A stretch of 64,000 nucleotides of DNA. Source: Protoeuglena noctilucae. Taxonomy: Eukaryota. This document shows, piece after piece, positions 473 through 64,000 of this stretch. The stretch covers positions 620,001-684,000 of the forward strand of contig OY253683.1 in NCBI GenBank assembly GCA_958009085.1, in the 5' to 3' direction. The position numbers and the translations under genes are program-made. The notes beneath the pieces were generated by a model. The model did no database searches. It had not been told where the DNA came from and worked only from the letters and a program-made list of their open reading frames with translations. The first letter of the stretch is position 1. Each line of letters starts with the position of its first letter.

Positions 473-3400
473 CGATGGTTTGGCCCGGGCTTTCACCGCC
501 CCCACGGCGGCACTGTTCGGAAGGCCGGCGCCGAGCCCACGAGGGAAGACCTCCGTATCATCGGAGGCGAGGGGTGACTCTTCTCCGCCGCTGGGCCAGT
601 CCCCAGCGCGGCGGTCAATTACGCCCCAGTCCAACCGGCCCCAGTACAGCAGGTGGGCCTTGGGGACGCGAATCGCGAACGTATGTATCGACAATCGCGC
701 AGTGGTGGGTCGGCAAGGTCCTTGAAGCCCTCGGTCCGCACGGATGCGGGGGTAGTCGGCGTGCGCCCCTTCACGCACCCGCTGCGATCGATGCGCGCAG
801 CACGACAGAGAGCAAGGACGTCCGAGACGATGAGGACTCGGCGGGACCGTCGGCCCAGGGCAGCGCGAGGGACATCACCCTCCGGGCCATGACCATGCGC
901 CGCCACCGCAAGGCCGATACCATCTTCCGCTCCAAGTTCGGCATCCCGGAGGGGGAGTTATTCCTGGACGAGTACCACTGCGCGCTGCAGAAGAAGATGC
1001 TGATCCAGGCGAGGGCGCAGTCACTCGCACGGCCGACCCCTTCTCGCGCAAGGGGTGCGCGACCCAGGGCTGCTCGCCTCTTCAGCCTTCTGAGAACCCA
1101 CGCTCGTCCCGCTCGCCCCCGCGTGCAGGGCCGCATGTATATCTTCGAGCACTTCGTGACTTTCTACGCCAACATCTTCGGGGTTCAGAAGGTCAAGGTC
1201 ATGGCGCTCAAGGACGTGACGGCCGTGCGCAAGGCCAAGACGCTGGGGCTGCCCAACGCCATCGAGATCACGCACAGGGGCAAGGTCGAGTTCTTCACGT
1301 CCTTCCTGGTGAGAAGGGCCGGGGTTGTCAGGCAGACGCGGCGGCAGGCGTGCATCGGCGGGCGTCCTGCCCAGAGATGCTGGGAACACGCCGTGCCCGC
1401 GATGCTCGCGGTGCGCGTGGGCGTGACGCGCGCCCTCGCCCCCGCAGTCCCGCGACGAGGCGTACCGGGTGGTGTGCTCCGCGTGGGGCAGGACCTCCGC
1501 CTATGCCAAGCTGTACCTGGGAGCCCAGGCCCTGGGGAGCTCGCCTTCGCTCGACTTCCCCGCGGGGTCCCAGCCCCGGGCGTCCGCGCTGGGCACCGCG
1601 GGCAGCCAGGAGGGGCTCCTGCAGGGTGGGCTCTCCTCCGTCGCGGCCATGGCGGCTGCCCTGGCCCACGGCGAGACAGACCGGGTGAGGAAAGGACGAT
1701 GCCATGCGAGAAGACGCATTGAGTGACTGACGGGCGAGAGGGTGCCAATAAACTCCCGTGGTTTGGGCGGTGATGCGACTGCGGCCGAGCGGCGAGTTTG
1801 CCTGCGTGGTCCTTTGCAGGAGGACGAGGACGACGAGGGTGACTCGACGCAGAATCTGCGGTGGGCGCCCCAGCACGGGCAGCCGCCCCCGCCCCGCGAG
1901 GAGCTCAAGAGCATCGCCACGTCGACGCTGCAGTGCTCGGCGGAGACGGTGTGCAGCAAGTTCCTCAGGTGAGGGGCCAGCATGCCTGGCGCGAGTGGTA
2001 CGCACGTGATGGCGGTCGCTTGGCAGGCTTCGTTTGCACTCGTTTGATGCGCTCATGGGACCCGTCACGTCCCTGCTTGCCCCTCCCTCTCGCAGCTCTG
2101 AAAGTGGCTTTTGGGAGAAGCTGCATCACGAGTTCGGCGACACGGACGTAACCCTCTCCGACTGGCAGCACGACGCCGAGCTGGGCATGGTGCGTTCGCT
2201 GGAGTTTGTGCGGCACCTGGGGCGCGTGGCCATGGGCCCGGACAAGACGCGGTGCTCCCAGACACAGAGGTGCGCGGGGTGCTGGGAGGCGCAGAGGTTG
2301 CTGGTGACGCGGGTGCCTGACATCACGGCGCCCGCTCGCGTCACGCAGGTGCCGGCAGTACCTGACGGGTGAGGGTGGGGCGGTGGTGCTCTTTGAGACG
2401 GAGCAGGAGATGATGGACATCCCATTCGGCGACACGTTTAAGGTCGTGTTGCGTTGGGAGTTCCACCAGCACGACGAGTCGGTGCCGGAGGTGAGGTGGA
2501 CCGCGGCAGGTCGCAGGGCGCTGCGCAGGCGATGGCCGCATGGAGAGGCCGCGTGTTGTTGATGGCACGCAGACGAGCGTCTCAATCATGCTGGGCATCC
2601 CCTTCAGCAAGAGCTGCTGGGTCAAGGGCATGATCGCCAGCCGCACGACCACGGAGGTGACGGAGGCGACCCAGAAGGTCCTGGGAATCATGGCGGAGGC
2701 CATCGCGCCCCCGCGGCCCGAGGGCACGGCGTCCAGCAAGGCCCGGATGCTGCAGGAGTTCAAGAAGACAGTCACGCAGCGCGTGCAGGTGCGGCACGAC
2801 GCCATGATGGCTGCGGTGCACGAGCCCAGCGTCCCTCGCCCCGCGCCCCATCCGCGGCATGCTCGTGCTTGCAGGGCAGCACCGATGTGCGCGCGCTCAT
2901 CGCCAAGATCCCCTCCGAGTACCGGACGGACGTGATGCGCATGCTGGAGTTCACCGTGGACCAGAGCCTGACGCCCGACATGGTGCGGCACGTGCGCGAG
3001 GGGGGCGTCTACGGACTGGTGGCCGACGGCGCCGACCTGGTCCTCTCCACCCTCTCCTGGGTCCTCGCCAGCCTTTTCCGCCGGGTGAGTTGACACGCTG
3101 GCTCTTTCACCTAGGACGCTTACTGGATGGCTTGGCCGCCATCCGAGCGGCGCATGGGGTGACAGAGGTTGCACCCCCCGGTTGCGGCCAGTGTCACTTC
3201 CTTCCCTCTTCTGAGCTGTGAGGGGCGCGCACTCATCTCTCTCTCCTCCCCCGCAGCCCATGGTGGGCCTCAGCTTGTCCCGGGAGGACCTGGCGCAAGT
3301 CATGGGGGCGTTGCTGCAAGGACTCGTGCTCCTGCAGTCGTCCATCTTCCTCGTCATGTTCTTCTTCTGGGGCTGGCGACTGCAGGGGGGCTTCCCCCAC

Positions 3401-3677
3401 GCGCCCCCGGCCCTCTTGCAGGTGGCGCCCTCGGCCGCCTGCGAGGCCCACGCCGCGCAGCTGCAGGCCTTGACCAGGTGGGGGCCGACACTGTGCCTGA
3501 TGATGCGCCGCATGGCCGGTGTTTCTGATACCGCAGACGTGACGTGACAGCCTGTTGGTCCGCAGGGAGGTGGCGGATCTCCACCGCTTTGTGGCCGCCC
3601 TGGCCGAAGCGCAGCCGACCCTCGTGAAGGCCATCGCAGCGGCGCTCAACTTGGACCCCGCCGTGCCGCACGCCTAA
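473..3677 (+). CDS. GRAM + VASt (StART-like) domain protein, VAD1/GRAMD1-like sterol-transfer family; multi-exon, start codon uncertain
   Basis: GRAM motif FRSKFGIPEGELFLDEYHCALQKKMLIQ|GRMYIFEHFVTFYANIFG (intron 1009-1128). VASt-like exons follow (QEMMDIPFGDTFKVVLRWEF; GIPFSKSCWVKGMI), then a hydrophobic C-terminal segment (LLQGLVLLQSSIFLVMFFFWGW). TAA at 3675-3677, TGTAA at 3708. Confidence 0.8.
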
Positions 3678-3707
3678 CATCACGCCCGGCGCGGGCCCAG
3701 CCATGCC

Positions 3708-3712
3708 TGTAA
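3708..3712 (+). terminator. TGTAA chlorophyte-type polyadenylation signal of the GRAM/VASt gene
   Basis: TGTAA lies 30 nt after the stop. The same signal follows other genes (31681-31685 on +; 40964-40968 on -). Confidence 0.6.
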
Positions 3713-3824
3713 TGACGGCTGCGTGATTTCGCCACCCCAGTTGCCGTCTGGACATCGCAGCCGCGCTGGTGTTGATGGTGTGGTCTGTCGGGTGAAACTA
3801 CAACCCACTGAAACAACAACCCGC

Positions 3825-6800
3825 TGTCAATGCTCTGTCAACACTCCACGCGCCAGTGGAGTAGCAGTGGAGTAGCCGCCACTACACCCTCGTCAACGTG
3901 TACATGCCCCGAGACGCTGCTGACAAAGACTACGTCCTTTCCACCCTCCTCCCTGACTCCTCGCATCCCACGTGCTCGGCCTGGTCCTCATGGGTGGGGA
4001 CTGGAACATGGTCATCGCAGCCGACATGGCAGCCTCGTCCTCGAACCACCAGTCCACCTATGAGGTGCAGACAACCCTGCGAAAGAAGCTGCAAGCCCAA
4101 ATCGTTGTCCTGGGCCTCATTAATGCCGGGGAGCAGAACCACAACAAGTTTTTTGCAGTCCCCACGCGCCGAGACATGGCGCAAGACAAGTCGAGGAAGA
4201 ACCGACCGACTTCGTTTCGACGTCCCTCGGAACCAGCCCGTTGAATTCCGTACGGAACGCTCTGATGCCACCGCTCGCATCCACTCTGCCAACATTGCCC
4301 TCTCTGACCATGCCCCTGTGCACATTTTCCTGCGTGACACCCCCCGCACCGCTCGCCGGCACCCCGCCAACATCCACCCGCACGCTTCCTTCCTTGTTAA
4401 GGAGATCCGCCAGCAGATCAAGCCTCTGCAGGAGGCTGCTGTGTCCTCTGCCATCCCGGCCCACCCTGGGCCAGCCGCTCCCCCCAGCACCGCCAAGCGC
4501 TGGACTCAGCAGACAGCCAATGCCATCCAGGAGATCGCCCGGCACTGGTACGCTTACCAGTCCCAGTATATCAACCAGCGGAAGCAGCAGCTGCGGCTTC
4601 TGCGGGAGCAGTACTTTGCAGCTGTGCGTGACGGCGAAGATGCCACTGCGTTCTGGTCCCAAATCCTCGAGTACTACCAACATGCCCTCGCTTACCTCGA
4701 CCGGCAGAACAAGACCCGGTCCTTTGATGTGCCGGCCTCGGCTCTCCCCCATGCCCTCCAGCCTGACAGAGATAAGCCCTCCCCGCCAGTCACCAGCGTC
4801 AGAGACGCTGACGGCCAGCTCCTCTCCTGCCCTGGTCGAGGCTACCCTCGTGGACCACTTTGAGACGGTGGGGCGCTCCACACCCCGCAATCCAGCTGCT
4901 CAGCACCACGTGCTGGAGGTCCTCCAGAACTCTGGGCGCACGCTCACTCACCAGGAGCAGCAGAGCATTGATGCCACCATCACTACAGAAGAGGTCCTTG
5001 CGGCCATCCACTCCTTCAAGCCTGACAGCGCCACGGTGCCCATGGGCTTGCCTACTGGCCTGTACCAGCGCTACGCCCACCTCTACGCTCCTCTCCTCAC
5101 TCTCCTCCTCAACACCATCCATCAGACGGGTTTCATGCCTGCCTGCTTCCTCAACAGCACCGTTACCCTCATTCCTAAGCTCCCCAAAGCCACGGACTGC
5201 AAGCCCTCGGACTTCCGGCCCATCTCAGTCAATGACGTGGTCTACCGCGTCCTCGCTAAGGTCCTCAACTCCCGGCTACGCCCCGTCCTTCAACGCATCA
5301 TCCCCCTCAGCCAGCAGGCCTTCATCAAGGGCCGATGCATCTCGCGATGCGTGTACCTTACCCGCGCCACCCTGGAACTCCTCGACCAGTCAGACGAGGG
5401 CTGCTTCATCATCTTCAATGACTTCGCCAAGGCCTATGACACGATGGACCGGCCCTTCTTCAGACGCATCCCTGAGACCCTGCACATTGCCGATACGTTC
5501 TGCACCTGGTCATGCACACCCCCTCATCCACCTACCAGCTCAAGCTGGGTCACGGTCTTAGCCGTGGTTACAATGTCTCCACGGGCATCCGCCAGGGCTG
5601 CCGGGTTGCCCCCTCCCTCTTCATCCTCGTGGCACTCGCGCTCCATGAGCTGGTCGCTTCTCAACCTTGACATCAAGGGCCTCCCGGCTCCAGGACCCAA
5701 CAAGCCTCTATGCTTTCCGCACCGATGAAAGGCTAGCCCAGGAGAGCCTCATCAGCCAATTTGCAGACGACACCGAGTTCGTGCAGGCCACGGTGCAATC
5801 CATGCACAACTTGTTCCATGCCCTGGATACCTTTCACCTGGCAACTGGTCTGCGCTCTAATCCCGCCAAGACGTACATCATTCCCGCTGGAAAGTGGAAC
5901 ACGGACCCAGCAGCGCTCCACCTGCACCTCACTGCTGCCCAGGCCCAGGGCCTCAATTCGCTTGTCTATGACCATGCCCAGCAACGCTGGAAGCTCGATG
6001 GCTACTGGATTACCCCGCCTGGGGGAGAACCAGTAGCGCCAGTGAAATACCTGGGCACGCTCATGGGGCCCGCTGGGATCGTCCCGACCGACTACTCATC
6101 CTTCATGGCAAGCATCTATACACAACTCCTTCGCCTCCGGCAACACGATATCCCACTGCCTCATCGATGGAAGATTGTCAAGACGTTCGTGCTGTCACGC
6201 CTCATCTATGCGACCACGCACTGCCCCATGGACTCCTCGCCAGGGAAGCCGGGTGCCCTGCTCCTTCGCTACATCCAGCGCTACGTGCTCACGGAATCCC
6301 CCAAAACGCAACGGCTCCCGCCTGAGATTGACAGGAACGAGCTGTACCACCCCGTCAGCCGGGGCGGCCTCCAGGCCCAGCATGTGCCCTTTCACCAAGC
6401 GGCCCTCCGCTTCAAGATGATCCAGCTCCATGCGTCGGGGGCGGACCCCCTCTTCTCCAATGCCATCCACCAACACCTCGTCAGGTCCCTCAAGTACAAA
6501 GCGACGGTCAAATGTGATGGCCAACGCTATGAGACGACGCTGTACATCCCGGTGAGGCCCCACATCTGTGCTCTGACAGCCAAAGACTGGGCGGAGCTCA
6601 CGCCCACCCCCCTCACTCGTGACCTCTTCAGCGCCACCCAGATGCTTCCTCCACCACAGCCATACGCCAACCCACCCACCCTGAATGACCTGTGGGTCCA
6701 CCTGACTCCAATGCTCCGAGCCCCGCTTCTCTCCAACCCACACAACCCTCTCTCCTTCCCTGCCAACTTCGTGCACAGCCGCTCTACTAACCCCACCCAC

Positions 6801-59222: not shown

Positions 59223-60118
59223 CTACCACATGGCGCGCTTGACCGGCTTGGCACCGATCCCCGTGTCGAGCAAGCCGTGCATGCTCGGCGGGGCGTCGGG
59301 GGAATCCTCCGGGCGGCCGTACATGTCCTGCTCTCAGCGAGGAAAACGTGCATGAAGACCCGCACTTGCAAGGGCTCGTGGGGATCCCCGGAGCTGTGCC
59401 AGCAGCTGCGAAGCGCTCGCCTGAGGGGTCATGACGCCCAACTGGCCAGAGATCTGCTCCAGGCCGAGCTTGGAGCTGGGCAGGCCGAAGCCCGGCAGGC
59501 GCATAGGCCGCGAAGCGATCTGCCGCTCAATGTCCAGACGTGCGGGCAGCGCAGAGCCGTACAGCTGCCTCATAGGCATGCCGCCCGATATCTCCAAGTC
59601 TTGCTGCAGGCAAAGGGGCATGTGGGCAGCACCGTGGCGTGGCGGCCGCGGGCTCAAAAGGGACCCGGCGTCAGTCTCACGGTCTGCGCCCCTCCGCCTG
59701 AGATCACGCGATACATCGACAGCGAAGGAGCGTCCCACGCACCTTGGCATGAGCCTTGACGATGTCCTCGACCGGGTGCGACGTGCTGGCCGACTCCTTG
59801 AGCGCGGGGAGGCCGTTGCGCAGGACGTCGACAGGCTCGCGGAGGAAAGGAAGCGACGGCGTCGATCCGCTGGTCCCGGTCGCCTGCGGTGGCGCGGGGG
59901 CGAACGGTCGAACCACGACGAGCGAAGAGGACTTGTAGGCGCCGCTGGCGGCCTCCTCCCGCACATCCTGTCACGCATACAACTCATTGGCCCACAGGCA
60001 TGATGGGGAAAGCCACGGGAGGGGCGCGCAGAGCGGCGCTAGACTGCATCGAGGCAATTGCGCTCGTGCGGCCAGGGACGCCGCGTCATGCCGCCCCATG
60101 GCCCCTTGCTCGCACCAT
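59223..60118 (-). CDS. POMP: Proteasome maturation factor POMP/Ump1; first exon probably ATG only (uncertain)
   Basis: DVLRNGL...SHPVE, MRQLYGSALPARLDIERQIAS...RLPG..LPSSKLGLEQISG, DMYGRPEDS. Confidence 0.82.
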
Positions 60119-60511
60119 GGTGACGACGTGACGCAATAGATGCGGTCACGCGCGTGGAGGCCGGACAAGAAGCGCTGGCACGTGGAAACGTTGGAGAGTT
60201 TCAGGTGTGCAAATGTGCAAATGCAGTGACGCCACGAGGATGACAACGCGTCTGCTACCTGTTTGCGATGCGCAAGCGGGAGGGGCGCCGGATGCGGCGG
60301 TCACGCGGCTGTCCAGCGGTGACACCGCCACGATGTTGATGTCAGGGCAAGCGATGGCTCGACGCCGCTGCTAGCGATTGCATCGGCCATATTTCATACG
60401 TCTGCCGATGGATGCGTAGCTGGCAGCGAGCCTGCGTCCTCGTTCCTCACAGGCAGGCCCTGATTGGTCACTTCCGTTAGCCAGGTGCCTCCAGTCGAAA
60501 TTCGAGCCGTC

Positions 60512-63062
60512 ATGAGTGCGAGAGGGGCATGCTTAGCATCCGCATCACCGCGGGTGGGGCCGCCCCCGCGCTTGTGCGACCGTGCGCAACACGGCACGGC
60601 CTTCACACCTCCTCGCGCCTTTTCACGGATCTTTGGCGAGGACATGGACCCGTCGCTGCTCATCCCCGAGGAGAGTAGGTGTGTGGCTCTCTCCAAACGC
60701 CCTCAGATGTCGCGTCTGGCTCCAGGCTGTGGATGCCGAGCACGCGTCCCTGCTCAGGCAGCTGCTTGCACCCACTGCAACAGTGAGGCTCTCTGTGCGC
60801 TGCAGTGAGTCGGTGTCGAAGCAGTGGTCGACGGTGGAGGACCACGTCGGGCGGACCCCGCTGGTGCGCCTGAGGCGACTCAACCCGAACCCTTCCAACG
60901 TCATCCTCGCGAAACTGGAGGGCAACAACCCAGCTGGGTCGGTGAAGGACCGGGCAGCGGCGCAGATGATCATGGAGGCCGAGAGGCGGGGTGTGATCCA
61001 GCCGGGGGACACGCTGATCGAGGCCACGTCCGGCAACACGGGCATCGCCCTGGCCATGATGGCTGCGGTGCGTGGGTACCGGCTGAAGCTCATCATGCCC
61101 TCGAACATGACGGAGGAGCGCAAGGCGTCGATGGCCGCGTACGGCGCGGAGCTGGTGGAGGTCGGGCCGGGGCAGATGGAGGCGGCACGAGGTGAGCGGG
61201 CGGGGTGAACAGCGAAGATGAGCGGTGGCTCACGGAGGTACATCACAACACACCTGATGCACCTACCACTCATCATGCGAAGCTGACTGTCGTCGCAGAC
61301 TTGGCGCTCCAGATGCAAGCGGAGGGCCAGGGCATCGTGCTGGACCAGTTTGGCAACCGGGACAACCCCCGCGCACACTACCGGGGCACGGGGCCCGAGA
61401 TATTGGACCAGACGAACGGGCGCATCACGCACTTTGTGTCTTCGATGGGCACGACAGGTGAGCGTCTCTGATGGCCGAAAAGCAGCGGTTGGTCGTCATT
61501 GTGTCGCATGCTGGCGCAGCGTGCCTCGCCTTGCGCACAGAGAATATCTGACGGACCTCTCACGCAGGGACGGTCACGGGGGTGTCCATGTTCCTCAAGG
61601 CCAAGAACCCGGACATTCAAATCGTGGGCCTGCAGCCCAAGGACGGCAACATCCCAGGCATCAGGCGAGCTGGGAGGGGTGGCCTTGGGGTCTGTCTTGG
61701 GGGCATGCGCTTCAACTCAGGGCGAGCAGTGGATGGAGAGAGAGAGACCCTGGTGTCTTAGGACATGATTGCTTTCACACACTTCACCGCGTTCGCCTGA
61801 CATGTACACGCGGCTGCCGAGCAGGCGGGCTGCCATGCCATGCACACCGTCCCTCTCTACCCACATCGCTCTCCGCTCGCGTTTTGCTCCGCAGGCGGTG
61901 GCCCCCGGAGTACCTGCCTTCCATCTTTGAGCCCGAGCGCGTGGACCGCGTCATGGAGATCACGCAAGGGGAGTCCGAGGAGACGATGCGGGCCCTGGCT
62001 CGCAAGGAGGGCATCTTCGCGGGGGTGAGTGCTGAATGGGACGAGGGTCAGGGGTGTATGTGTGATGATCATCAGTAGTAGAAGCTGTACTGAGTAACTG
62101 TACTGAGTGCTTTAGATAATATCATCAGAAGCCTGTGTCCGTTCCTGGTCCTCGGTTGCGCAGGCTGGCCCGACTGTCTGCGCCTGCGTCTCAGAGCCTG
62201 GTGTACATTTCTCGTATGATGAGTGCGGTAGTGCCATGCTTTACACAATGACGGACCGTGTTCTCAGGTGTCGTCGGGAGGGGCCATCTCCGCGGCCCTG
62301 CGCCTGTCCGCTGAGGTCGACGACGCCGTCATCGTGGTCATCGTGTGCGACCGGGGAGACCGGTACCTCTCCAGCGGACTCTTCTCCTCTGAAGCCGCCA
62401 AGCACGACCCCAGGTGACACTGGCGTGATGGAAGGGTCGCGTCACTCTCAGCGGTTGCGGGTGGTGGTTGTGCACGCTCCCAGGCGACAACGCATCTCAA
62501 CCCTTCTAAGCCTCTCAATGATGACAGCTCGTTGGGTGTCACCGCGCAGGCCCACGGGCGTGGAGACCTTCGCGTCCTCTCTCGCGCGCATGTCCGCGTA
62601 CCCGGCGCCCCACTACGTCCTCTTCACCACCGACATCGACCCTCAGACGCAGCAGCTGTGGTGCCCCGACTGCGCGCGCAGCGTCGACGCCGTCCGGGCG
62701 GCTGTCTGGGCCACGGGGGGGACGCTGCTTGAGGCCAGCGTGGGGCAACGGCCCGCATGGAAGAGCCCAGACCACCCCTTCCGGTGAGGGGCACGGGGCA
62801 GCTGGGCAACGGTGGCATGAGAGCTGAGCAAGCGTGGCTCATGTAGGGGCACGTCCCATCACCGGCGGTGGCTCGCAGGCACCTCCGGGGCTTTGAGATC
62901 AAGGGCGTGCCGACGTTGGTGCGGTGGGGCGTGCGCGAGACGGGGGACGGGGAGATCCTGGCCCGCGTGCAGGGGCCTCTGGAGAACGCAGCAACCGAAG
63001 CGGAGGCGGCGCGGGTGGCACAGGAGTTTGTGGCACGGACCAAGGACCTGCGCCTGGACTGA
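60512..63062 (+). CDS. cysM: Cysteine synthase B (CysM-type, PLP-dependent) with transit-peptide-like N-terminus, predicted to be fused to a C-terminal TRP14/TXNDC17-like thioredoxin
   Basis: [13 protein letters not shown] (PLP Lys codon 60945-60947), [66 protein letters not shown]. Intron 62414-62549 joins in frame to ...YVLFT...WCPDC (62659-62673)...[15 protein letters not shown]|...KGVPTLVRW. Confidence 0.85.
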
Positions 63063-64000
63063 TGGGGCCCGTGCGTGGGCTTTGGTTTAGGTCATGCACT
63101 TTCCTCTCTGCGCTTTTGCTAGCTCTTGGATTTGCTTTTAGCTGGAAACTTGCTCTGGCTCATCTACATGCCGATGGCTTGGCGCGCTATTGTGGAACGT
63201 CCACCGCTTTCGAAGCGATGAATCGGGCTGTCCATCCATGCGTTTGGAGCCGCATTGGGCCCCTGACTGCGGTGCTCTTAGGGTACCCCTGGCTGTCAGC
63301 CGCGTTTCTTCAGCCAGGTTGGCTCCGCGCATCGCGGACAGACACTGGCCTTCGGAGTGATTGCTAGGCAGGCAGCCATGCAGGGCGCGCTTGCGGAGGA
63401 AGGCTCCAATGCCTTCCCGGAGGGGGACGCAGCCGGCAGTACAAGGAACAGCCCCCTGAGCGGGTCTTCAGCCCGGAACATGATGCCGGCCAAGGACGCC
63501 ATCTTGGAAGAGGAGGCGATGAAGGCGAGCTGCCGCGCGGAGGGGACGGGCACGTTTGATTGGGAGTTTCAACTGGAGCCCTGGACGCGGCGAGGCGTCG
63601 CGCGGGGCTTCCGTCGCACGATGGCATTGTCTTCGCGTTCAGTTTTGTATTTATATTTCCCGGCCGTATCTTGGGGCCGGAAAACCCCGTCGCCGGCCGC
63701 CGTTCGCGGCGTTGTTGCCTCGGCCCCCTTCCGGGGCCTCCCTCAGCCACGGCTGGGTCTCTTGGCGCTAACATCCATTAATCTGCGTGAGAGATAGCGA
63801 ATAAGCCCCCCGGATCAATGGCCGGGCCCAGGGATCTCGGGAACTCGGCGGGCAACAACAGGGCCCCCCCGCCGCCCCCGGAAGTCCCGCACTTGCTCGC
63901 ACGCGGCCCGCCACCCGTGCAGCGCCCGTGCATTGCGATCCCACGGCTTTCATGCGTGCCGCAGCCTGTGTGGATGGCCCTTATCGCGGCTGGCCGATCA

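What the first reader, a model, noticed from the sequence alone, without database searches (positions are those of the whole stretch)
60512..63062. CysM-TRP14 fusion: candidate single-polypeptide thiosulfate-to-cysteine (S-sulfocysteine synthase + reductase) system
Seen: the last CysM exon ends ...KHDP AG|gtgaca at 62413, and the acceptor cgcag|G at 62549 continues in frame as [15 protein letters not shown]...WCPDC...[22 protein letters not shown]. Only 136 nt separate the two parts. The ATG inside the exon (62590) would remove the first TRP14 helix; in-frame ATGs inside the predicted intron (62518/62521) would leave only ~100 nt for a promoter. Established: enterobacterial CysM condenses O-acetylserine with thiosulfate to S-sulfocysteine, which separate redoxins (NrdH, glutaredoxins) reduce to cysteine plus sulfite. 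TRP14/TXNDC17 (WCPDC) is a cystine and persulfide reductase. Inference: the fusion couples synthesis with reductive release of cysteine, probably in the plastid, as a Rosetta-stone pairing of a bacterial enzyme with a eukaryotic redoxin. I do not know of a characterised example but cannot exclude one.
Basis: partly seen in the sequence, partly recalled or inferred. Interest (0 to 1): 0.88.

Follow-up and report, generated by a model that had tools for sequence, protein, structure and literature searches.

The report
Cysteine synthase fused to TRP14 redoxin
A marine alga really does splice a bacterial-type cysteine synthase (CysM) onto a small TRP14-type redox domain to make one protein, and the same unstudied fusion is conserved in many green algae, some dinoflagellates and a few fungi, which suggests a built-in way of releasing cysteine from the sulfur-bearing intermediates that CysM makes.

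Summary
RNA contigs from three marine metatranscriptome samples (one study) all carry the 62413|62550 GT-AG joint. One 1732-nt contig spans 60420-63199 with all seven introns removed, giving a single 500-codon ORF. Without splicing, the CysM frame stops at TGA 62415-17, so the fusion in this genome depends on intron 6.

The N-terminal part is a true CysM. Every exon scanned matches the CysM equivalog best, and the domain is 82% identical to a relative that passes the cutoff. The C-terminal part is a TRP14/TXNDC17 domain with WCPDC.

The fusion is a conserved family, not a one-off: 25 of the 120 best long CysM relatives carry PF00291+PF06110. They include Coccomyxa, Trebouxia, Tetraselmis, Nephroselmis, a Cladocopium cluster and Gonapodya. 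In five other genomic loci the junction lies inside an exon, once in an intron-free ORF. All fused CysM domains form one group in a tree.

The function, reductive release of cysteine from S-sulfocysteine or a persulfide adduct, remains inference. Eight full-text searches that could have shown a description found none. Plastid targeting cannot be judged.

The parts
60420..63227 (+). Minimum extent of the mRNA (outer ends of the RNA contigs; these are not mapped transcript ends)
   Evidence: table 8: X1 contig 60420-63199; X3 contigs 60424-... and ...-63227; X4 to 63184. There is no ATG between 60420 and 60512.
60512..60678 (+). Exon 1: start codon and N-terminal extension (about 55 residues, Arg/Ala/Ser/Pro-rich; possible organelle presequence)
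   Evidence: No Pfam hit. The first 40 residues hold 6 Arg, 0 Lys, 1 Asp and 0 Glu.
60806..61191 (+). Exon 2: CysM N-terminal half, with the PLP-lysine motif SVKDR (60939-60953) and the TSGNTG loop (61026-61043)
   Evidence: PALP 2.7e-37; CysM equivalog NF008735 is the best hit at 191.4 bits; motif coordinates.
61299..61457 (+). Exon 3: CysM
   Evidence: Joint; best NCBIfam hit is CysM at 81.7 bits.
61568..61664 (+). Exon 4: CysM; ends inside the IPGIRRW motif (61651-61901, split by intron 4)
   Evidence: Intron 4 (61665-61894) is GC..AG: the joint reported as CA..CG with 6 ambiguous bases resolves to GC-AG at cut +3.
61895..62024 (+). Exon 5: CysM
   Evidence: best NCBIfam hit is CysM at 52.4 bits.
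62268..62413 (+). Exon 6: CysM C-terminus (CDRGDRYLS 62346-62372) and the first half of the linker (...KHDP + AG)
   Evidence: best NCBIfam hit is CysM at 57.5 bits, reaching profile position 295/296.
62414..62549 (+). Intron 6, the 136-nt intron that creates the fusion. The donor is ccccag|GTGACA, the only one of the 7 donors without G at +5. The intron contains TGA 62415-17 in the CysM frame, and ATG ATG at 62518/62521 in the TRP14 frame
   Evidence: Removed in RNA contigs of X1, X3 and X4 and present in the DNA contig of X6; boundaries; not repeated elsewhere in the window.
62550..62783 (+). Exon 7: linker end and TRP14 domain first part, with WCPDC at 62659-62673
   Evidence: PF06110 3.7e-11, 43.2 bits against a cutoff of 23.1; human TRP14 1wou 2.2e-5 with WCPDC aligned.
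62879..63062 (+). Exon 8: TRP14 domain second part (cis-Pro motif GVPTL 62904-62918) and stop codon 63060-62
   Evidence: Joint 62783|62879; aligned with relatives; the Pro is invariant in 28 of 28.

Best explanation
The locus is one nuclear gene of a GC-rich marine alga. It has eight exons and one mRNA, and encodes one 500-residue protein made of three parts: a short N-terminal extension, a complete bacterial-type CysM (O-acetylserine sulfhydrylase B), and a complete TRP14/TXNDC17-type thioredoxin-fold domain with a WCPDC dithiol. These points are shown here. The proposed mechanism is inferred. CysM forms the PLP-aminoacrylate from O-acetylserine and adds thiosulfate, giving S-sulfocysteine. 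The tethered TRP14 domain attacks the S-S bond with its first Cys, releasing sulfite and forming a mixed disulfide with cysteine. The second Cys then releases free cysteine. The oxidised domain is re-reduced by a thioredoxin reductase, or by glutathione in the WCPDV members. The released sulfite can go on through sulfite reductase to make a second cysteine. The fusion arose once, from a proteobacterial-type cysM joined to a eukaryotic TRP14. It is now found in chlorophytes, dinoflagellates and monoblepharid fungi. In this genome an intron sits exactly at the domain junction; in the five other loci examined it does not.
For: A single spliced mRNA is shown. CysM identity: all four exons scanned in frame match the CysM equivalog best. 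The domain is 82% identical to P0163, which scores 504.9 against a cutoff of 413 for CysM and falls below the cutoff for CysK. The model of P0163 superposes on E. coli CysM 2v03/2bhs at rmsd 1.4 A, TM 0.95-0.96. The PLP Lys motif, the TSGNTG loop and IPGIRRW are present. The first Arg of that last motif aligns with Arg210 of Salmonella CysM and is kept in 28 of 28 members. TRP14 identity: PF06110, 1wou, and the six best fold matches of the domain model are all TRP14 proteins, with ordinary thioredoxins about 10^4 worse in E-value. Conservation: 25 of the 120 best long relatives carry both domains, and 5 of 15 metagenome loci carry both parts, each with the junction inside one tblastn segment. 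The fused proteins form one side of a branch (SH-aLRT 90). The nucleophilic Cys is kept in 26 of 28 and the cis-Pro in 28 of 28. Chemistry: thioredoxins and glutaredoxins reduce S-sulfocysteine to cysteine plus sulfite in E. coli, and the sulfite is re-used (PMC3528435, abstract). TRP14 is the rate-limiting cystine reductase of animal cells (PMC11217419, abstract start). An independent lead is that the nearest ESM Atlas clusters to relative P0001 are three bacterial PALP+Glutaredoxin fusion clusters of 98-139 members (score 0.89, sequences not seen). The full-length AF2 model has pTM 0.86 and mean pLDDT 89.6, which suggests a fixed domain arrangement.
Against: No activity was measured, and no thiosulfate transporter or electron donor could be looked for because no genome is held. 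In one recent study thiosulfate was the least preferred of three sulfur donors for five microbial cysteine synthases, including E. coli CysM (PMC13188885, section 8). Four of 28 members have WCPDV (no resolving Cys), and 2 of 28 (Hyaloraphidium, Raphidocelis) have lost the site but kept the domain, so catalysis by a dithiol cannot be the whole story. A Cys in the linker (DPxPC) that many relatives have is Thr in the window. RNA evidence comes from contigs of a single study, which cannot show a minor unspliced form. The position of the CxxC relative to the CysM active site could not be measured because no model coordinates are available.
Confidence: 0.45

Rival explanations
1. Same architecture and same logic, but the physiological sulfur donor is a persulfide (glutathione persulfide or polysulfide) and not thiosulfate. 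CysM would make a GS-S-cysteine mixed disulfide or cysteine persulfide, and the TRP14 domain, a cystine and persulfide reductase by family, would release cysteine.
For: PMC13188885 (abstract and section 8): E. coli CysM and four other synthases formed GS-cysteine from GSSH plus O-acetylserine, with higher affinity than for thiosulfate, and the product needed a two-electron reduction. TRP14 reduces cystine (PMC11217419, abstract start), and protein per- and polysulfides are reduced by the thioredoxin and glutathione systems, with TRP14 named 49 times in the text (PMC4737208, search listing). Mixed disulfides of cysteine are closer to TRP14's known substrates than a thiosulfonate is.
Against: The CysM-specific Arg of IPGIRRW is invariant in 28 of 28. 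From recall, this residue is linked to binding of the anionic thiosulfate. Independent bacterial CysM+Grx fusions fit either donor. The GSSH work is a single recent in vitro study.
Confidence: 0.2
2. The TRP14 domain is a redox switch or sensor that turns CysM on or off (for example with light or oxidative stress) and does not act on the product.
For: Two of 28 members keep the domain without any CxxC, and 4 of 28 are monothiol, which suggests a role that does not need dithiol catalysis. The high pTM of 0.86 suggests stable docking on the CysM domain.
Against: No conserved Cys pair was seen in the CysM domain that could serve as a target: the only invariant Cys in alignment A2 is in CDRGDRY. 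The nucleophilic Cys, the cis-Pro and the WK.P.HP.R substrate-side loop of TRP14 are conserved as in catalytic TRP14s. Known TRP14s are small-molecule disulfide reductases, not regulators (PMC11217419).
Confidence: 0.15
3. The redoxin domain is a general tethered cystine/disulfide reductase that keeps newly made cysteine reduced, or is now mainly structural. There is no specific coupling to an S-substituted intermediate.
For: TRP14's documented activity is cystine reduction (PMC11217419). The family also includes tandem TRP14 proteins and TRP14 fused to other enzymes: aminotransferase P0135 and peptidase M24 C-terminal region P0134. The domain therefore seems to be a portable module.
Against: In the material searched here the TRP14 fusion was seen only on CysM-type sequences. 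All 28 fused sequences form one group next to CysM, and each of the three fused relatives scanned (P0001, P0002, P0163) falls below the CysK cutoff. This is the isoenzyme known for making products that need reduction.
Confidence: 0.1
4. Two separate proteins: CysM ends at TGA 62415-17, and TRP14 starts at ATG 62518, either from its own promoter or as the second cistron of a bicistronic mRNA. The joint would then be a minor or artefactual splice.
For: Both ORFs are complete on their own: the stop is at a position equivalent to the end of bacterial CysM (profile 295/296), and the Met lies about 10 residues ahead of the TRP14 fold. The donor GTGACA is the weakest-looking of the seven.
Against: All three RNA runs assembled only the spliced form, and X1 depth over the intron bin equals exon-only cover. 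The linker ...DP[R/K/Q]P... is conserved across the joint in relatives. Five other loci, one of them an uninterrupted 473-codon ORF, encode the two parts as one reading frame.
Confidence: 0.03

Closest known systems
Enterobacterial CysM (cysteine synthase B, OASS-B; PDB 2bhs, 2v03, 2jc3) working with separate Trx/Grx/NrdH
   Same: The N-terminal domain is a CysM by equivalog model, by sequence (64% identity to a Salmonella CysM) and by fold. The two-step logic, S-sulfocysteine synthesis followed by redoxin-dependent reduction to cysteine plus sulfite, is the published E. coli pathway (PMC3528435 abstract).
   Different: Here the redoxin is covalently fused, belongs to the eukaryotic TRP14 family rather than Trx/Grx/NrdH, and the gene is nuclear, intron-bearing and carries an N-terminal extension.
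Human/animal TRP14 (TXNDC17; PDB 1wou, 7xq3, 1v9w)
   Same: It matches PF06110 and has WCPDC, the cis-Pro and the WK.P..(F)R loop. The six best fold matches are TRP14 proteins.
   Different: Animal TRP14 is a free 14-kDa cytosolic protein reduced by TrxR1. Here the domain is the C-terminal part of an enzyme, at 24-26% identity to solved TRP14s, and some family members are monothiol or have lost the site.
Plant-type APS reductase (APR), a reductase domain fused to a C-terminal thioredoxin/glutaredoxin-like domain (recalled; no call)
   Same: Also a sulfur-assimilation enzyme of plants and algae in which a bacterial-type catalytic domain is fused to a C-terminal redoxin. As I recall, that redoxin resolves an enzyme-bound S-sulfocysteine and releases sulfite, which is the same bond chemistry proposed here.
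   Different: In APR the thiosulfonate is on a protein Cys, not on free cysteine. The redoxin is Trx/Grx-like, not TRP14, and the catalytic domain is unrelated to PLP enzymes.
Arabidopsis CS26, chloroplast S-sulfocysteine synthase
   Same: A eukaryotic phototroph enzyme that makes S-sulfocysteine from O-acetylserine and thiosulfate (search listing only: PMC3813922, PMC4300907).
   Different: CS26 belongs to the plant OASTL/CysK-like lineage, has no fused redoxin, and is discussed as a signalling rather than an assimilatory enzyme.
Bacterial PALP+Glutaredoxin fusion proteins (three ESM Atlas clusters, 473-503 aa, mostly Pseudomonadota)
   Same: A cysteine-synthase-type PLP domain joined to a thiol-disulfide redoxin in one chain of about the same length. 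One cluster is automatically named 'Cysteine synthase B family protein'.
   Different: The redoxin family and the domain of life both differ. I saw only cluster summaries (score 0.89, below the 0.9 mark), with no sequences, domain order or literature.

Membership tests
CysM / cysteine synthase B (NCBIfam NF008735, TIGR01138) | Fold-type II PLP enzyme (Pfam PALP) | tested here: met
   Window exon 2 matches PALP at 2.7e-37 and exon 3 at 4.4e-7.
CysM / cysteine synthase B (NCBIfam NF008735, TIGR01138) | Scores above the curated cutoff of the CysM equivalog models and below that of CysK | tested here: inconclusive
   The spliced window protein could not be handed to the scanner. Four of its five CysM exons each match CysM best and sum to 383 bits against a cutoff of 413, with exon 4 unscored. 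The closest relative P0163 (82% identical in this domain) scores 504.9/413 and 452.3/394.2 for CysM and 271.5/350.95 for CysK. P0001 and P0002 behave likewise.
CysM / cysteine synthase B (NCBIfam NF008735, TIGR01138) | Catalytic residues: PLP lysine (SVKDR), Asn loop (TSGNTG), phosphate loop (GTTGT), and the CysM-type IPGIRRW loop with the Arg210 equivalent | tested here: met
   All are present in the spliced translation and aligned to Salmonella CysM through P0001. The Arg is kept in 28 of 28 family members. The role of Arg210 in thiosulfate binding is recalled, not from a call.
CysM / cysteine synthase B (NCBIfam NF008735, TIGR01138) | Uses thiosulfate to form S-sulfocysteine | not testable with these tools
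   This needs an enzyme assay.
TRP14 / TXNDC17 (Pfam PF06110) | Match to PF06110 above the gathering score | tested here: met
   Window exon 7 alone scores 43.2 bits against 23.1. Relatives score 47-69 bits.
TRP14 / TXNDC17 (Pfam PF06110) | WCPDC active site and the cis-Pro of the thioredoxin fold | tested here: met
   WCPDC lies at 62659-62673 and GVPTL at 62904-62918. WCPDC aligns to that of human TRP14 1wou.
TRP14 / TXNDC17 (Pfam PF06110) | TRP14-type fold rather than classical thioredoxin or glutaredoxin | tested here: met
   The test was done on the domain of the closest relative (L001:3974-4420, pLDDT 94.8). Ranks 1-6 are TRP14 structures (E 8e-8 to 3e-6, TM by target 0.64-0.76), and thioredoxins start at 1e-3.
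TRP14 / TXNDC17 (Pfam PF06110) | Reduced by thioredoxin reductase; reduces cystine or persulfides | not testable with these tools
   This needs biochemistry.

The most novel reading that the evidence does not exclude
TRP14-type redoxins are the dedicated reductases of S-substituted cysteines (S-sulfocysteine, cysteine mixed disulfides and persulfides). This fusion would then be a self-contained module that turns thiosulfate plus O-acetylserine into cysteine plus sulfite. It would have been built once from a horizontally acquired proteobacterial cysM and a host TRP14, and later passed among green algae, dinoflagellates and monoblepharid fungi. If so, thiosulfate or zero-valent sulfur is a real sulfur source for marine phytoplankton, and free TRP14 of animals may be the missing S-sulfocysteine reductase.
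Probability: 0.35. Interest if true: 0.8.

Novelty: new variant of a known kind. Interest (0 to 1): 0.66.

Why it matters
In bacteria the step after CysM, which is who reduces S-sulfocysteine in the cell, is still attributed loosely to several thioredoxins and glutaredoxins. A conserved natural fusion is a Rosetta-stone pointer to a specific partner and gives a single recombinant protein on which the whole thiosulfate-to-cysteine conversion can be tested. It also points to an untested substrate class for TRP14, whose known role is cystine reduction. It suggests that marine algae can assimilate partly reduced sulfur. Finally, it documents a bacterial gene that became a spliced eukaryotic fusion gene and then moved between distant eukaryotic groups.

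Tried and rejected
- Whole-genome search for other cysteine synthases, TRP14 copies, transporters and reductases: no genome is held for this window.
I did not try it elsewhere.
- Earlier notes of this scan: none on this genome and none on a CysM-TRP14 fusion. The hits were E. coli cysM intergenic notes and CysM-CysRS fusions, which are not relevant.
- The representative library search with the 78-residue TRP14 exon listed no full-length fused protein among its 150 best. Such proteins probably sit in clusters represented by CysM sequences. It did give fragments that span the junction.
- Pfam found nothing for exon 1, for the 47-residue stretch of exon 6 that was scanned, or for exon 8 on their own.
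- My NCBIfam scan of exon 4 used a wrong frame and returned nothing.
- Introner or repeat origin of the seven introns: each intron matches only itself in the window.
- The bicistronic or two-gene reading was considered and rejected.
- Literature: the eight full-text searches that could have shown the fusion found no paper on a cysteine synthase fused to TRP14/TXNDC17/DUF953 or on a dedicated S-sulfocysteine reductase. The library lacks most subscription journals, and no InterPro architecture search was possible.
Full report
**What is in the sequence.** The window is GC-rich (61-72% in 2-kb steps) and the region has eukaryotic exon-intron structure. Unspliced, the CysM frame reads ...KHDPR and then TGA (62415-17). 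The TRP14 frame also has in-frame ATG ATG at 62518/62521. Two complete, separate proteins were therefore a serious alternative, and the proposed donor (AG|GTGACA) overlaps a natural-looking stop.

**RNA evidence.** A run search found marine metatranscriptome runs holding about half of the sampled words of the stretch, as expected for exons only, and DNA-type runs holding all of them. I laid three RNA runs (X1, X3, X4; three samples of one study) and one DNA-type run (X6) on 60000-63900.
- Each RNA run has a contig with the joint 62410>62547 (cut +3, that is 62413|62550; GT..AG; 136 nt skipped).
- X1 has a single 1732-nt contig covering 60420-63199 in eight pieces, with no differing letters.
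- X6 has a colinear contig (60602-63745) and none of the seven joints.

Joining the eight pieces gives a 1503-nt ORF of 500 codons. Six introns are GT-AG. Intron 4 is GC-AG: the joint listed as CA..CG with six ambiguous bases resolves this way. Intron 6 has the only donor lacking G at +5. There are two limits. The RNA data are contigs from one study. Contigs also drop rare variants, so a minor unspliced form, which would encode a stand-alone 362-residue CysM, is not excluded.

**Identity of the two halves.**
- *CysM half.* Exons 2 and 3 match Pfam PALP. All four CysM exons that I scanned in frame match the NCBIfam CysM equivalog NF008735 best (191.4, 81.7, 52.4 and 57.5 bits) and CysK worse. 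The spliced protein itself cannot be given to the scanners. Its CysM domain is 82% identical to relative P0163 and 64% identical to a Salmonella CysM. P0163, P0001 and P0002 pass both CysM equivalog cutoffs and fail the CysK cutoff. A model of P0163 superposes on E. coli CysM (2v03, 2bhs) at rmsd 1.4 A and TM 0.95-0.96 by target. The PLP-lysine motif, the Asn loop, the phosphate loop and the CysM-type IPGIRRW loop are all present.
- *TRP14 half.* Exon 7 matches PF06110 (TXD17-like Trx) at 43.2 bits against a cutoff of 23.1. It also matches human TRP14 (1wou) with WCPDC aligned. A model of the same domain from the closest relative (pLDDT 94.8) has TRP14 structures as its six best PDB matches. 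Ordinary thioredoxins are about four orders of magnitude worse in E-value.

**The fusion is a conserved family.**
- A search with the TRP14 exon among longer proteins found two proteins with PF06110+PF00291.
- A search with a 255-residue CysM part of P0001, restricted to proteins of 448 residues or more, listed 120 proteins, of which 25 carry both domains.
- Named fused members are Coccomyxa sp. Obi and Gonapodya prolifera (both labelled 'cysteine synthase B'), Trebouxia sp., Tetraselmis striata, Nephroselmis pyriformis and Gonapodya sp. Cluster mates add Stichococcus sp. and the dinoflagellate Cladocopium sp..
- Local BLAST found a TRP14-like tail in 28 of the 121 long proteins. This includes Hyaloraphidium and Raphidocelis, where Pfam no longer sees the domain.
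- Fragments from the representative library also span the junction.

**Genomic evidence from other loci.** A scan of metagenome contigs with a TRP14-plus-linker alignment gave 15 loci.
- Five of them (L001, L002, L003, L009, L011) carry CysM and TRP14 parts colinear on one strand.
- In all five the residue that corresponds to the window's splice junction lies inside a single tblastn segment.
- L001 is an uninterrupted 473-codon ORF (nt 3002-4420, 74% GC) that aligns with residues 35-500 of the window protein at 70% identity.
- The other ten loci showed only a TRP14 match in the DNA held. Four of these had less than 1 kb upstream.

The fusion therefore does not depend on splicing in relatives, and the intron at the domain boundary is peculiar to the window's lineage among the loci seen. 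The seven window introns are not repeated elsewhere in the window.

**Phylogeny.** I built a quick maximum-likelihood tree of 103 CysM domains (291 columns, LG+G4, SH-aLRT only).
- All 28 fused sequences fall on one side of a branch (support 90). One gain suffices, and 0 of 500 label shuffles do as well.
- This group sits next to a group that contains enterobacterial CysM.
- The window groups with P0163 and P0189 (99).
- The monoblepharid fungi sit inside a 20-row clade otherwise made of green-algal and unnamed sequences (95).
- The Cladocopium-type sequences form the other subclade.

Two caveats apply. The non-fused rows are only proteins of 448 residues or more, many of them probably mis-called fusions, so bacterial diversity is poorly sampled. 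The root is arbitrary.

**Active-site conservation in the family (28 rows).**

| Feature | Count |
|---|---|
| WCPDC | 18 |
| WCGDC | 4 |
| WCPDV (no resolving Cys) | 4 |
| Site lost | 2 |
| cis-Pro kept | 28 of 28 |
| First Arg of IPGIRRW kept | 28 of 28 |

The linker motif DP-x-P follows the CysM end in 14 of 28 rows. Many of these have a Cys directly after it, but the window has Thr.

**Structure.** The full-length model of P0163, built with the 27-sequence family alignment, has mean pLDDT 89.6 and pTM 0.86. For a two-domain chain this suggests a defined arrangement of the domains. I had no coordinates, so I could not measure where the CxxC lies. No PDB entry covers both domains: the best query TM is 0.60 to 0.63.

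**Mechanism.** Shown here: one mRNA, one ORF, an intact CysM and an intact TRP14-type dithiol domain, conserved together. From papers:
- E. coli CysM makes S-sulfocysteine from thiosulfate. Thioredoxins and glutaredoxins reduce it to cysteine plus sulfite, which is re-used (PMC3528435, abstract).
- Five microbial cysteine synthases, including E. coli CysM, also accept glutathione persulfide, giving GS-cysteine. This product likewise needs a two-electron reduction. Thiosulfate was the least preferred donor in that study (PMC13188885, abstract and section 8).
- TRP14 is the rate-limiting cystine reductase in animal cells (PMC11217419, abstract start).
- In CHO cells, S-sulfocysteine is handled through a glutathione mixed disulfide and glutaredoxin (PMC10482334, abstract).

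My inference is that the fused domain reductively releases cysteine from the S-substituted cysteine that CysM makes. I put the general idea at about 0.65, split into thiosulfate/S-sulfocysteine (0.45) and persulfide/GS-cysteine (0.20). A purely regulatory role (0.15) and a general or structural role (0.10) remain open, mainly because some members are monothiol or have lost the site. Separate proteins are very unlikely (0.03). An independent lead for coupling is that the nearest ESM Atlas clusters to P0001 are three bacterial PALP+Glutaredoxin fusion clusters. I saw only summaries at score 0.89, below the tool's 0.9 mark. From recall, plant-type APS reductase offers a precedent: a fused C-terminal redoxin domain that resolves an S-sulfocysteine, there on the enzyme itself.

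**Targeting.** The first 40 residues hold 6 Arg, 7 Ala, 6 Pro, 4 Ser, 1 Asp and no Glu, which is presequence-like. Relatives have N-terminal extensions of very different lengths. No predictor was available, so plastid versus mitochondrion versus cytosol cannot be decided.

**Novelty.** Eight full-text searches that could have shown the fusion were run. Their terms combined CysM/cysteine synthase/O-acetylserine with TRP14/TXNDC17/DUF953/glutaredoxin domain, plus 'sulfocysteine reductase' wording. They found no description of this fusion. The two papers that mention both TRP14 and S-sulfocysteine do so in unrelated passages. The library omits most subscription journals, and I could not query InterPro. 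The proteins themselves are already in public databases under generic names, so this is an uncharacterised family and not an unseen one. I rate it a new variant of a known kind: the CysM-plus-redoxin pathway made into one chain with a TRP14-type redoxin in eukaryotes.

Noticed in passing
window 61665-61894: Intron 4 of the gene is a GC-AG intron (catcag|GCGAGC...CCGCAG|g). It is removed in RNA contigs of all three RNA runs. It splits the CysM-specific IPGIRRW motif between the two Arg codons.
   Followed up: partly
window 60115-60250: RNA contigs of X1, X3 and X4 map 136 nt here and continue for 255 nt that do not lie on the laid stretch (loose end at 60115). This is the terminal or internal exon of a neighbouring gene, only about 170 nt from the 5' end of the fusion transcript contig (60420).
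   Followed up: no
window 62428-62787 (protein P0009): The protein collection holds a 119-residue 'protein' identical to this stretch. It is a prokaryote-style ORF call that starts inside intron 6 and stops at the TGA overlapping the intron 7 donor. It is not a real product according to the RNA contigs.
   Followed up: partly
P0172, P0171, P0168 (Gonapodya, Hyaloraphidium) in the tree: The monoblepharid fungal copies of the fusion form a clade (97) nested inside a green-algal/unnamed clade (95). This suggests transfer between algae and these fungi. Hyaloraphidium has lost the CxxC, and both Gonapodya have WCPDV.
   Followed up: partly
L001:3002-4420: The closest relative of the window gene (70% identity over residues 35-500) is an intron-free ORF on a 74% GC contig, whereas the window gene has seven introns. 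The four intron-bearing relatives share an intron near window residue 426-433, not the window's positions 362 and 440.
   Followed up: partly
P0135, P0134, P0003: TRP14-type domains occur in other fusions: a class I/II aminotransferase with two TRP14 stretches (597 aa), a peptidase M24 C-terminal region with TRP14 (247 aa), and tandem double to quadruple TRP14 proteins. The aminotransferase case is a second PLP enzyme-TRP14 pairing.
   Followed up: no
one search list (P0230, P0235, P0255, P0257 and others): Other long CysM-type proteins carry a hexapeptide-repeat (serine acetyltransferase-like) domain and are labelled S-sulfo-L-cysteine synthase by one source. Others carry NUDIX or CysRS domains. 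Some may be gene-call run-ons.
   Followed up: no
window 62406-62553 and relatives: The linker after CysM is conserved as DP-x-P, followed in many relatives by Cys (DPQPC, DPRPC, DPKPC, DPGPC). The window has Thr there. In the two non-fungal WCPDV members (P0159, P0160) this linker Cys is present, so it might substitute for the resolving Cys.
   Followed up: no
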